Assembly: GCF_024502345.1 (NCBI RefSeq)
Contig: NZ_JALDNN010000001.1
Strand: one strand, 5' to 3'
DNA length: 64,000 nt
Origin: Escherichia coli
GTDB taxonomy: Bacteria; Pseudomonadota; Gammaproteobacteria; Enterobacterales; Enterobacteriaceae
Shown: positions 50,201 through 53,200 of the stretch, piece by piece
How positions within the stretch are numbered: the stretch's first letter is position 1
Layout of the letters: the number at the start of each line of letters is the position of its first letter
Program-made: the position numbers

Positions 50201-53200
50201 GTCTATCAATCTGCATTCTCACCGAACTTACTCGAACGCCCGCGTCTGGAAAGCCATCTACAAAAACTCCTGACCGATGCCGTGAAAATGCGTGGGCTGA
50301 TTGCGCCCGCCAGCAAAGAAACCCGTATTCCAAAATCGATATATGAAGGTATCCAGACCATTAATCGCAATCTGGTTTGTATGCTGGAGTTGCAAATCAA
50401 TGCATACTGGGCCACGCGCCCCAGCCATTTCGTGTTATTGAACGCGCAAAAACTTCGTGATACCCAGCATATGATGCAGCAAATACTGCTGAGCCTTGTT
50501 CATGCGCTGTACGAAGGTAATCCGCAGCCGGTTTTTGCCAATACGGAAAAATTGAACGATGCTGTGGAAGAGCTGCGTCAGTTGCTGAATAACCACCATG
50601 ACCTGAAGGTTGTGGAAACACCAATCTATGGTTATGTGTGGCTGAACATGGAAACGGCACATCAGCTTGAGTTGCTATCGAATCTGATTTGCCGGGCCTT
50701 GCGCAAATAATTCCTGAACTTCAGAATCATCTTGCTGCTGCTTCGATTCAGCAAGGATAAAGGGTATGATAGTGAAAAGGGATAAAAGCATTGTCATCTG
50801 CGGCAGCTATGAGTAATGTTGGCCCTAACGAATAGCGGTTGCTTAAACGAATCCGACTCTCACATTATCAGGGGTATAAAAATGGAAACTACCAAGCCTT
50901 CATTCCAGGACGTACTGGAATTTGTTCGTCTGTTCCGTCGTAAGAACAAACTGCAACGTGAAATTCAGGACGTTGAGAAAAAGATCCGTGACAACCAGAA
51001 GCGCGTCCTGTTGCTGGACAACCTGAGCGATTACATCAAGCCAGGGATGAGCGTTGAAGCAATCCAGGGCATCATCGCCAGCATGAAAGGTGACTATGAA
51101 GATCGCGTTGACGATTACATCATCAAAAATGCCGAGCTCTCCAAAGAACGCCGCGATATCTCCAAAAAGCTGAAAGCTATGGGCGAAATGAAAAACGGCG
51201 AAGCGAAGTAATTCCCGTTTTATTCAATGAGGGTTGCCCGGCAACCCTCATTGCTCATTGATTCTTATTTGTGTATCACCGTCATCATTCTCATCTGAGA
51301 ACCAATCGAAATTAACAACAGCCTTCTTCTGTATGCAGCAAGGCAAAAAGTTCTGTAACTCCATTGTTATTAACTGCACTGGTTACTAACACGTTGTGCG
51401 CTCCAGCTTCCCGTAACCAACTTTTCACCAAAGATATTTGTTCCATGCTGGCTAAATCTGCTTTGGTTACTACTCCAATGACCGGGTGATTCATGGCCCG
51501 GTAGGGCGTTTTTACCTCTAATTCCTGCTTCAGCGCTGAGATTCCTGCTTGTTGCCGGAAAAGCAGGCACCTGCCGTCTGAACGGTATCGATCCGGAAGC
51601 GTATCTGCGCCATATTCTGAGCATACTGCCGGAATGGCCCTCCAACCGTGTTGACGAACTCCTGCCATGGAACGTAGTTCTCACCAATAAATAAGCGTCA
51701 ATACGGTGCTCCGTTGACGCTTACTTTAATCCGTTTTCTGAGCTTAGATTTTTCTGTTCCTACCCAGACCGTGGATTTGGAATTCATTTTTTGTCAGGTC
51801 AATGCTAATCGTTAAAACGGCCATAACGCACCTCCACTGGAAGGTTTATCAGTAATATCCTACCGTTGCTTCATGGTCGGGGCGTCCATTCCATTATTAT
51901 CGGTTTTCCTTTCTGTTTATAAATGAAAACGCCAGCTGTATTCAGGCTGGCGTCAGGGGAAATGAAGCCTGTTGAGTGAGATTCACCGGTTCTGGTGCAG
52001 AAGCTGCAGATGGCGCAGGGTAAGGACATCTTCTCTTGCCTGCTTAATACAGGACAACAGTGCTGTTTCTGTGGTTAATGGCACTATACCCTGCATCACT
52101 GCATTGTCTTACAGCAACTGGTGAGGGCTGGCATAAGTTGCCGGTGTTTCGGTAGAGTCACGGTCATCCACCACGCGGAGTGAATAACCGTTTTCAGCGG
52201 CCTTATTAATCAGTTCAGTGATATTAACACCATCAATGTCAACGACAATGTGCCCCATATCCAGCGCCTGTACGTTAACGCTGTCGGCTTCCAGTGTCAT
52301 CATTTCGCCTCCGGATACTTACCCAGGGTAATGTTATTTACCGTTCTGTAATTGTCGCGGGTCATCAGGCCGGTCGCCCTGCGAGCCCGGAGGATACCCG
52401 CTTACGCGAGAGCAATAAGTGGCTGGCCACCATTCTCGATACAAAACTCTGCTGAATAGCAGCGATTTTCCCAGCGTGGTGCGTCTTTTGCATTTTACTG
52501 GTTCTGAGTTATCAATTATCTGTTCACTAATGACTACTCTAAAAAGTTGTATCAATTTAAGTGATATAGGGAGTCTGGAGATTCACCCTTTTTGGTGATG
52601 AAGTTAACAATACCGCCAATTGCCTGTGAACCGTACAGTACGGAATATGGACCTTTCACTACCTCAACACGCTCCAGCGCAGACTCATCTATCAACAGTC
52701 CCACACCATAATTATCTCCGGCGCGCTGATAAGTTACCTCCTGACCATCAATGAGAATTAAAACACGGGAGGATGCTTCGCCACGAATGCGGATTTGTTT
52801 ACGGCCTGCCAAGGAGTTGTCTGTTATCTCTACTCCGGGGATGTCCTGCAAATTATCGGCTATGGAGGCATTGGTGGAGTTCTGCAATGTTTGTTGGTCA
52901 ATAACCTGTATAGTCGCCGGGCTTTCCCAAAGGTTGCTTGCCGAACGATTCGTGGTCACGACGAGCGTCTCTTCGTTGCTGATTTTTGTTTCTGAAGAAG
53001 TTGCGGTTGCAGTAGAAACTATCCCAGAAATGCATAATGACAGAGTGGAAAGGATATAAATTCGACAAGGTATATTATATAACATTTCATCCCTCATTAA
53101 TACAAAGTACAAATGATTGCTGTAATGATAATTATTTTCATTTATGTTCTCATATATCTATAATTATTGTCATCTTCATAAATTGTAAATATCAAACATT

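What the first reader, a model, noticed from the sequence alone, without database searches (positions are those of the whole stretch)
51312..51500. EutP/PduV-like GTPase tail adjacent to the cobalamin salvage genes
The C-terminal 60 residues of the minus-strand ORF resemble the small GTPases encoded in ethanolamine and propanediol microcompartment operons. In Salmonella the pdu operon lies next to the cbi-cob cobalamin operon, of which E. coli retains only cobUST. A pduV-like fragment on the opposite strand, on the yeeX side, fits a relic of a lost pdu-cob region, although a prophage-borne GTPase fragment is an alternative.
Basis: inference. Interest (0 to 1): 0.5.

Follow-up and report, generated by a model that had tools for sequence, protein, structure and literature searches.

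The report
Dead pduV gene stub (yoeF)
This is the last 60 codons of pduV, the final gene of the propanediol-utilisation operon, left beside tmaR/yeeX when most E. coli lost that operon to a prophage-like island; it is a real but already annotated pseudogene (K-12 yoeF).

Summary
Window 51312-51494 (minus strand, 60 codons plus stop) matches Pfam PduV-EutP (E=2e-13, profile positions 87-142 of 143). In E. coli strains that still carry pdu (645 of 5,426 complete genomes), the order is cobTSU, a cbi remnant, the B12 riboswitch, pocR, pduF, then pduA to pduV. The operon ends with a 147-aa pduV whose stop codon lies 100 bp from the convergent tmaR/yeeX. The window aligns without gaps to that arrangement (97.1% over 613 bp), from tmaR up to pduV codon 88, where homology stops. 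In the window, 2,966 bp of CP4-44-type island remnant replaces 17.5 kb of cbi remnant, riboswitch, pocR, pduF and pduA-pduV'. The island remnant starts with 71 bp of unassigned sequence and an IS66-family right-end fragment. The same junction is present in 4,157 of 5,426 genomes, including K-12, where the ORF is yoeF (b4538). The stub is 92% identical to E. coli PduV, 58-60% to Salmonella and Citrobacter PduV, and 17% to E. coli EutP. It lacks the P-loop and the DxxG motif, so it cannot be a GTPase. No phage signal was found. It is an ordinary, already annotated relic.

The parts
51312..51494 (-). pduV relic: codons 88-147 plus the stop codon (51312-51314) of the Escherichia-type 147-aa pduV. 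It retains the G4 motif TKAD (51456-51467) and lacks G1 (P-loop) and G3 (DTPG).
   Evidence: Pfam PF10662 E=2.3e-13. Gapless alignment of window 51494..50882 to EC93 L005 22517..23129, 595/613 identical. 92% aa identity to intact E. coli PduV.
51212..51311 (.). Native 100-bp spacer between the convergent stop codons of pduV and tmaR. It contains a perfect 13-bp-stem hairpin at 51225-51253, probably a shared transcription stop.
   Evidence: The spacer is colinear with pdu+ strains. Hairpin MFE -21 kcal/mol, z=-4.06, 0 of 200 shuffles as good. The pattern scan did not call it a terminator.
50882..51211 (+). tmaR (yeeX, DUF496), the core gene that flanks the 3' end of the pdu operon in Escherichia and Salmonella.
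   Evidence: RefSeq annotation of matching genomes. PF04363 gene next to pduV or pduX in L003, L008 and L009.
51495..51565 (.). 71 bp of island-side sequence of unassigned origin, directly abutting the pduV break point. It is shared by genomes that carry the junction, including one where an IS110 element rather than the IS66 fragment follows.
   Evidence: IS66-family homology starts only at query base 127, which is window 51566. Hits H71 and H72 match 51395-51565 and then diverge.
51566..51745 (+). Right-end fragment of an IS66-family element (ISEc23/ISEc47-like), including the transposase C-terminus (K-12 pseudogene yoeD). The right boundary is approximate.
   Evidence: PF13817 DDE_Tnp_IS66_C E=1.2e-15. 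blastn to ISEc23/ISEc47 copies on plasmids, 93-99% identity over query 127 to about 291-313. RefSeq 'transposase domain-containing protein, missing N-terminus'.
51312..51668 (-). Chimeric 118-aa ORF, identical to K-12 yoeF (b4538). It consists of 58 residues read from island/antisense-IS66 sequence fused in frame to the 60-residue pduV tail.
   Evidence: the ORF listing. K-12 annotation yoeF 2078575-2078931. The stub part is identical in window and K-12.
51495..54460 (.). CP4-44-type island remnant (2,966 bp) occupying the place of 17.5 kb of cbi remnant, B12 riboswitch, pocR, pduF and pduA-pduV'. It comprises the IS66 fragment, a DUF957 fragment, yeeW, a cbtA stub, a TonB-receptor plug pseudogene (yoeA) and an IS4-family fragment.
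   Evidence: blastn map: window 48001-51494 = EC93 L005 26011-22517, and window 54461-59433 = L005 4982-1, with nothing of L005 4983-22516 in between. Annotations. No cobalamin riboswitch in 50700-55200.
54461..54632 (+). Cobalamin-biosynthesis (cbi) gene remnant on the cobU side of the island, the matching relic at the other edge. RefSeq calls 54462-54605 'cobalamin biosynthesis protein, missing N-terminus'.
   Evidence: Homology to EC93 resumes at 54461 inside the 145-aa ORF L005 4811-5248, whose N-terminus matches CbiG (NF004463, E=1.6e-19). RefSeq annotation. My own profile scans of the 47-aa window piece found nothing.
54757..55302 (+). cobU, the first of the retained cobUST salvage genes.
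   Evidence: NF004469 E=3.9e-74. RefSeq annotation.

Best explanation
The feature is a non-functional 3' stub of pduV, the last gene of the Escherichia-type propanediol-utilisation (pdu) microcompartment operon.

Shown: the ancestral arrangement at this site was cobTSU, cbi remnant, B12 riboswitch, pocR, pduF, then pduA to pduV, followed by convergent tmaR-yeeA-sbmC. About 12% of complete E. coli genomes and E. albertii still have it.

Shown: in the lineage represented by the window and by K-12, 17.5 kb is absent and a CP4-44-type island lies in its place. The missing stretch runs from inside the cbi remnant to pduV codon 87. Only pduV codons 88-147, the native 100-bp spacer with its hairpin, and tmaR remain on this side. 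A cbi stub next to cobU remains on the other side.

Inferred: the stub does nothing as a protein. It has lost the pdu promoter, its start codon and the G1 (GPSQCGKT) and G3 (DTPG) nucleotide-binding motifs, keeping only G4 (TKAD) and the C-terminal helix. The 118-aa ORF yoeF is an accidental in-frame read-through from island/antisense-IS66 sequence into the stub.

Inferred: the order of events (island insertion followed by deletion, versus one-step replacement) is not resolved.
For: Family: PF10662 E=2.3e-13 over profile positions 87-142 of 143; other GTPase families score E>=0.002.

Orthology: 613-bp gapless alignment at 97.1% to pdu+ strain EC93, ending exactly at pduV codon 88. The stub is 92% identical to E. 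coli PduV, 58-60% to Salmonella and Citrobacter PduV, and 17% to EutP.

Intact locus: the EC93 annotation shows cobTSU, riboswitch, pocR, pduF, pduA-V and then tmaR, with a 100-bp gap between pduV and tmaR. A pdu+ contig and E. albertii show the same. Salmonella has pduV-pduW-pduX followed by tmaR-yeeA-sbmC-dacD at the same site.

Replacement map: nothing of EC93 4983-22516 is present in the window.

Census: 645 of 5,426 complete genomes have pduS-V, and 5,409 of 5,426 have at least part of the probe. 4,157 of 5,426 share this exact junction.

Independent loss: another strain joins the cbi remnant to pduV codon ~49 over a 5-bp overlap, with no island.

Decay: population variants of the stub carry frameshifts and further truncations.

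Vertical history: pdu genes diverge like the flanking core genes. Against E. albertii, pdu is 90% and the flanks 85-95%. Against Salmonella, pdu is 73% and the flanks 71-77%.

Prophage boundary: the K-12 CP4-44 feature ends one base before the stub.

No sigma-70-like promoter in 51100-51900.
Against: Expression was not tested here, and K-12 RefSeq still lists yoeF as a CDS ('putative uncharacterized protein'), not as a pseudogene. The substitution pattern in the stub versus intact pduV (6 non-synonymous and 2 synonymous changes in 183 bp) fits neutrality. However, the counts are tiny, and the same region evolves fast even in intact genes (16 non-synonymous and 10 synonymous against E. albertii). 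The stub is highly conserved among junction-bearing genomes (>=99% identity in 3,343 genomes), but that is expected for a young shared haplotype. The mechanism that produced the pduV/island junction is unknown, because the 71 bp at the junction could not be assigned.
Confidence: 0.95

Rival explanations
1. The GTPase fragment was brought in by the CP4-44 prophage-like island, as a prophage- or island-borne GTPase gene truncated by IS activity, and has nothing to do with a chromosomal pdu operon.
For: The stub touches island sequence directly. A recent y-ome survey lists yoeF within a 'CP4-44 prophage region' cluster (PMC11551758). CP4-44 does carry another GTPase-like pseudogene, yeeP.
Against: The stub, its 100-bp spacer and tmaR are colinear with island-free pdu+ strains at the same identity as the neighbouring core genes, 97.1-97.7%. 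An island-free strain (L004) also carries a pduV fragment here. The K-12 prophage feature ends exactly before the stub. There were no PHROG hits, and only four weak hits in 50,697 phage records, all of them unannotated 'Listeria phage' records.
Confidence: 0.02
2. It is a fragment of the ethanolamine-operon paralogue eutP, or of another BMC-locus GTPase, copied or transposed here.
For: Pfam and TIGRFAM cannot separate EutP from PduV. Several GenBank records label the stub 'ethanolamine utilization protein'.
Against: The stub is only 17% identical to E. coli K-12 EutP, against 92% to E. coli PduV. DNA colinearity with pduV-tmaR is established. The second, island-borne E. coli PduV type (P0097) is only 54% identical.
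Confidence: 0.01
3. The stub, or the chimeric ORF yoeF, has been retained because it is expressed and useful. It could be a small protein, or a 3' element that insulates or terminates tmaR transcription.
For: The 118-aa ORF is open in the window and in K-12. The hairpin in the spacer is strong and conserved. The junction haplotype is found in 77% of genomes.
Against: No promoter-like site was found. The part of the ORF upstream of the stub differs between strains, with IS110 in place of IS66 in some and other frames called in others. Frameshifted and further truncated alleles are common. The GTPase core is missing. The hairpin lies outside the stub and would work without it.
Confidence: 0.03

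Closest known systems
E. coli K-12 yoeF (b4538), 'putative uncharacterized protein YoeF'; RefSeq WP_001016348.1 'EutP/PduV family microcompartment system protein' (60 aa)
   Same: It is the same locus. The 60-residue stub is identical in the window and K-12, and so are the junction with the IS66 fragment (yoeD) and the 100-bp distance from tmaR.
   Different: The island next to it is much shorter in the window (2,966 bp) than in K-12. It lacks flu, yeeRST, cbeA, IS2 and IS5.
Intact PduV of pdu+ E. coli (e.g. strain EC93, WP_001189434.1, 147 aa) and of E. albertii (143 aa)
   Same: It is the orthologous gene at the same site. The stub is 92% (E. coli) and 80% (E. albertii) identical over its length. 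In both species pduV is the last gene of the operon and sits next to tmaR.
   Different: The window copy lacks codons 1-87 (P-loop GPSQCGKT, switch regions, DTPG) and the whole operon upstream.
Salmonella enterica PduV (150 aa) in pduABCDEGHJKLMNOPQSTUVWX
   Same: Same family, same chromosomal site between cob and tmaR(yeeX), and same orientation. Full-length E. coli PduV is 76% identical to it.
   Different: Salmonella has pduW (acetate/propionate kinase) and pduX (GHMP kinase) between pduV and tmaR, and Escherichia has neither. The stub region itself is only 58% identical, because the C-terminal third of PduV is its most variable part.
E. coli EutP (b2461, 159 aa) of the ethanolamine operon
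   Same: Same Pfam/TIGRFAM family, PF10662 and TIGR02528.
   Different: Only 17% identity over the stub. It lies at an unrelated locus. It is a paralogue, not the source.

Membership tests
EutP/PduV family (Pfam PF10662, TIGR02528) | Significant match to the family profile | tested here: met
   PF10662 scores 50.6 bits (cut-off 21), E=2.3e-13, over profile positions 87-142 of 143. TIGR02528 gives E=2.9e-11.
EutP/PduV family (Pfam PF10662, TIGR02528) | Full-length match reaching the curated NCBIfam cut-off (138.35 bits) | tested here: not met
   The score is 43.8 bits, because only the C-terminal 40% of the domain is present.
EutP/PduV family (Pfam PF10662, TIGR02528) | P-loop (G1, GxxxxGKT/S) and G3 (DxxG) nucleotide-binding motifs | tested here: not met
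   Intact PduV has GPSQCGKT and DTPG at residues 8-15 and 42-45. Window homology starts at codon 88, and the sequence upstream is island/IS66.
EutP/PduV family (Pfam PF10662, TIGR02528) | G4 specificity motif, (N/T)KxD | tested here: met
   TKAD at stub residues 10-13 (window 51456-51467, minus strand). The K and D are invariant across all eight aligned sequences, EutP included, and the full TKAD is kept in six of the seven PduV sequences (E. fergusonii has TKVD).
EutP/PduV family (Pfam PF10662, TIGR02528) | Encoded within a bacterial-microcompartment operon | tested here: not met
   In the window the neighbours are tmaR and island remnants. The feature is met only at the orthologous locus of pdu+ strains.
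pduV orthologue (as opposed to eutP or another paralogue) | Closest to PduV sequences, and positional orthology at the 3' end of pdu next to tmaR | tested here: met
   92% identity to E. coli PduV against 17% to EutP. Gapless colinearity through the spacer and tmaR. Synteny in E. albertii and Salmonella.
Gene relic / pseudogene | Truncated relative to intact orthologues, with loss of its own start codon and operon promoter | tested here: met
   Codons 1-87 and all of pocR-pduF-pduA..U are absent. No promoter-like site in 51100-51900.
Gene relic / pseudogene | Signs of unconstrained decay in the population | tested here: inconclusive
   Frameshifted and further truncated alleles exist. However, the substitution counts (6 non-synonymous and 2 synonymous) are too small to measure selection.
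Gene relic / pseudogene | No expression and no function | not testable with these tools
   This needs transcript or ribosome-profiling data, or a deletion phenotype.
Prophage-borne GTPase (Era/EngB/YeeP-like) | Best similarity to phage or Era-like GTPase families, and location inside the prophage | tested here: not met
   Era and related families score E>=0.002, against 1e-11 to 1e-13 for PduV/EutP. No PHROG hits. No enterobacterial phage hits. The K-12 CP4-44 boundary excludes the stub.

The most novel reading that the evidence does not exclude
The stub is not merely tolerated. Under this reading the chimeric 118-aa YoeF (island/antisense-IS66 sequence fused to the G4-G5 tail of PduV) is translated and has acquired a function of its own. 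Alternatively, the stub DNA is kept because it forms part of the 3' end or terminator context of tmaR. Nothing found here supports this. It is simply not excluded, because expression could not be tested.
Probability: 0.03. Interest if true: 0.4.

Novelty: already known. Interest (0 to 1): 0.12.

Why it matters
As a feature it matters little. It is an annotated pseudogene-like ORF (K-12 yoeF), and RefSeq already names the product as EutP/PduV family.

Its modest value is as a marker of direction for the pdu presence/absence polymorphism in E. coli. Literature on AIEC and ST372 often describes that polymorphism as acquisition of pdu (PMC2941450, PMC9997745).

The stub, its native spacer and the matching cbi stub at the other edge show that the pdu-less state of most E. 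coli was derived from a pdu+ chromosome. 4,157 of 5,426 complete genomes share one junction.

pdu genes also diverge like the flanking core genes against both E. albertii and Salmonella. This points to long residence of pdu at this site. Regaining pdu by homologous recombination across the conserved flanks would therefore look like 'acquisition'.

The analysis also shows that yoeF should not be counted as a CP4-44 prophage gene.

Tried and rejected
(1) A protein search with the 62-aa stub returned only E. coli and Shigella fragments, because the word index limited candidates to 70. It gave no full-length relatives directly. It did expose longer alleles (P0013, P0018), which led to the intact operon.

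(2) The Lawrence & Roth papers of 1995 and 1996 on E. coli cob genes are not held in the library. I therefore could not check whether they had already described the pduV stub. Full-text searches for yoeF, and for pduV with pseudogene, found only gene lists.

(3) There is no solved structure related to PduV at E<=0.001, so motif positions rest on the alignment.

(4) The promoter and terminator pattern scan found nothing in 51100-51900. Rfam found nothing in 50700-55200.

(5) Profile scans of the 47-aa cbi remnant in the window found nothing. Its identity rests on the RefSeq annotation and on colinearity with the EC93 ORF, whose N-terminus matches CbiG.

(6) A dN/dS-style count on 183 bp was uninformative.

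(7) The 71 bp between the pduV break point and the IS66 fragment could not be assigned to any element.

Targeted contig look-ups for Salmonella, E. albertii and E. coli PduV answered the synteny question.

Full report
**What is there**

The window is E. coli chromosome in the reverse of K-12 orientation. The local order is sbmC (48981-49454, +), yeeA (49652-50710, +) and tmaR/yeeX (50882-51211, +), followed by a minus-strand ORF at 51312-51668 (118 aa).

The last 60 residues of that ORF match Pfam PF10662 PduV-EutP. The score is 50.6 bits against a cut-off of 21, E=2.3e-13, over profile positions 87-142 of 143. They also match TIGR02528 with E=2.9e-11. All other GTPase families score E>=0.002.

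The N-terminal half of the ORF is not GTPase sequence. On the plus strand, 51566 to about 51745 is the right end of an IS66-family element (ISEc23/ISEc47-like). It includes the transposase C-terminus (PF13817, E=1.2e-15).

The true extent is 51312-51494, slightly shorter than stated.

**Identity with known annotation**

The ORF is K-12 yoeF (b4538, 2078575-2078931). The overlapping IS66 fragment is the pseudogene yoeD. RefSeq annotates the 60-codon piece in many genomes as 'EutP/PduV family microcompartment system protein' (WP_001016348.1).

In K-12 the feature 'cryptic prophage CP4-44' ends at 2078748. That is one base before the 183-bp stub (2078749-2078931).

**Where it comes from**

Searching with the stub turned up longer E. 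coli alleles, and their contigs showed the source.

- In a pdu+ contig, the operon pduG to pduU-pduV is followed after 100 bp by convergent tmaR.
- In complete genome EC93 the annotated order is cobT-cobS-cobU, a 145-aa ORF, a cobalamin riboswitch, pocR, pduF, then pduA to pduU, a 147-aa EutP/PduV protein, and then convergent tmaR-yeeA-sbmC-dacD.
- The window aligns without gaps to EC93 from tmaR through the spacer into pduV. Window 51494..50882 matches L005 22517..23129 with 595/613 identical. Homology stops exactly at pduV codon 88.

A blastn map shows the two shared blocks:

| Window | EC93 (L005) | Identity |
|---|---|---|
| 48001-51494 | 26011-22517 | 97.7% |
| 54461-59433 | 4982-1 | 97.8% |

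Nothing of EC93 4983-22516 is present. Those 17.5 kb comprise part of the cbi remnant, the riboswitch, pocR, pduF and pduA-pduV codon 87. In the window they are replaced by 2,966 bp of CP4-44-type island remnant. Rfam finds no cobalamin riboswitch in 50700-55200, which fits.

**PduV, not EutP**

Identity of the stub to related proteins:

| Protein | Identity |
|---|---|
| Intact E. coli PduV | 92% |
| E. albertii PduV | 80% |
| Citrobacter freundii PduV | 60% |
| Salmonella PduV | 58% |
| Second, island-borne E. coli PduV type | 54% |
| E. fergusonii PduV | 42% |
| E. coli K-12 EutP | 17% |

Full-length E. coli PduV is 76-79% identical to Salmonella and Citrobacter PduV.

**Synteny**

In Salmonella the order is pduT-pduU-pduV-pduW-pduX, then convergent tmaR(DUF496)-yeeA-sbmC-dacD. 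The site and orientation match the window.

The apparent problem is that the stub ends only 100 bp from tmaR, leaving no room for pduW and pduX. Escherichia resolves it. E. albertii and pdu+ E. coli both have pduV as the last gene, directly next to tmaR.

pdu genes diverge like their core flanks:

| Comparison with E. coli | pduL-U | pduV | Flanking genes |
|---|---|---|---|
| E. albertii | 90.3% | 86.5% | 85-95% |
| Salmonella | 72.9% | 75.6% | 70.6-76.9% (tmaR 91%) |

This argues for long vertical residence of pdu at this site.

**Population picture**

Of 5,426 complete E. coli genomes:

- 5,409 match at least part of a pduS-pduV probe, and 645 match at least 80% of it, i.e. they are pdu+.
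- 4,157 cover at least 80% of a 200-bp probe centred on the 51494/51495 junction. These include O157:H7 and K-12.

Other states of the locus also exist:

- An island-free strain joins the cbi remnant to pduV codon ~49 over a 5-bp overlap. This is an independent 17.25-kb deletion.
- Some strains have an IS110 element instead of the IS66 fragment after the shared 71 bp.
- Alleles of the stub with frameshifts or further truncations occur.
- Some pdu+ strains carry a 114-bp in-frame internal deletion of pduV.

**Function**

The stub keeps the G4 motif TKAD and the C-terminal helix. It lacks the start codon, the P-loop (GPSQCGKT), DTPG and the whole operon with its promoter. No sigma-70-like promoter is seen nearby.

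The most likely reading is an inert relic. yoeF would then be an accidental ORF that reads from island/antisense-IS66 sequence into the stub. Substitution counts versus intact pduV (6 non-synonymous and 2 synonymous) are compatible with neutrality but too few to test it. Expression was not testable here.

**Rivals**

- A prophage-borne GTPase fragment is contradicted by four findings. The stub is colinear with island-free strains. The K-12 prophage boundary excludes it. PHROGs gave no hits. Only four weak hits appeared in the phage collection, all in unannotated 'Listeria phage' records.
- A eutP origin is contradicted by the 17% identity.
- A retained function for the chimeric ORF, or for the DNA itself, is not excluded but has no support.

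**Comparison with what is known, and novelty**

The feature is annotated as yoeF in K-12 and as EutP/PduV family in RefSeq. The pdu operon is a known accessory region of E. coli: a 17,445-bp 'pdu operon' region in LF82 (PMC2941450), with gains and losses reported in ST372 (PMC9997745).

One y-ome survey lists yoeF in a CP4-44 prophage region cluster (PMC11551758). The evidence here indicates that the stub part is chromosomal and not prophage.

I could not access Lawrence & Roth 1995 and 1996 to see whether the stub was described there. From my own recollection, not checked here, UniProt assigns YoeF to the EutP/PduV family and flags it as a possible pseudogene.

**Verdict**

The feature is an already known, ordinary gene relic, and interest is low. 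Its main use is as a marker showing that the pdu-less state of most E. coli is derived.

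Noticed in passing
L003:10001-10330 (Logan SRR20273428 contig; protein P0013): Some pdu+ E. coli carry a pduV allele with an in-frame 114-bp internal deletion (109 aa instead of 147, losing roughly codons 46-83), while the rest of the operon looks intact. It was seen on 24 or more contigs.
   Followed up: partly
L004:9978-9982 (GCA_013048265.1): This is an independent, island-free loss of pdu. A clean 17.25-kb deletion joins the cbi remnant next to cobU to pduV codon ~49 across a 5-bp overlap, leaving a 91-aa pduV fragment next to tmaR.
   Followed up: yes
window 51495-54460, junction near 52395: The CP4-44-type island is reduced to 2,966 bp. Relative to K-12 it lacks yeeP, isrC, flu (Ag43), yeeR, yeeS, yeeT, cbeA and most of cbtA, as well as the IS2 in yoeA and the IS5. 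A cbtA stub is joined directly to sequence flanking the TonB-receptor plug pseudogene yoeA (ORF 52552-53112, minus strand).
   Followed up: partly
window 51225-51253: A perfect 13-bp-stem hairpin (29 nt) sits between the convergent stop codons of tmaR and the pduV stub. MFE is -21 kcal/mol and z=-4.06. It is conserved in pdu+ strains and is probably a shared terminator, although the pattern scan did not call it because there is no T-run.
   Followed up: partly
L005:4811-5248 (EC93) and window 54461-54632: Even pdu+ E. coli have no cbi genes. Between cobU and the B12 riboswitch lies a 145-aa ORF whose N-terminal 118 residues match CbiG (NF004463 positions 1-125 of 351, E=1.6e-19). The window keeps only its last ~172 bp, the counterpart relic on the cobU side of the island.
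   Followed up: partly
L010 and L011: 7001-9555: A second pdu operon type exists in E. coli. Its PduV (146 aa) is 73% identical to the chromosomal type. It is followed by pduW and then an IS66 TnpB gene rather than tmaR, which suggests an island-borne copy at another site.
   Followed up: no
window 51495-51565: 71 bp between the pduV break point and the IS66 fragment could not be assigned to any element. It contains an imperfect internal direct repeat (ATTCCTGCTT twice, 20 bp apart). It is also shared by genomes where an IS110 element follows instead of IS66 (L012).
   Followed up: partly
L005 vs L008 and L009: pdu genes are as diverged as the flanking core genes, both between E. coli and E. 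albertii (~90% vs 85-95%) and between E. coli and Salmonella (~73% vs 71-77%). This sits uneasily with a recent horizontal origin of pdu in either lineage.
   Followed up: partly
window 50816-51211: the ORF listing extends the tmaR/yeeX ORF to an upstream ATG (131 aa). All annotated genomes use the 109-aa start at 50882.
   Followed up: no
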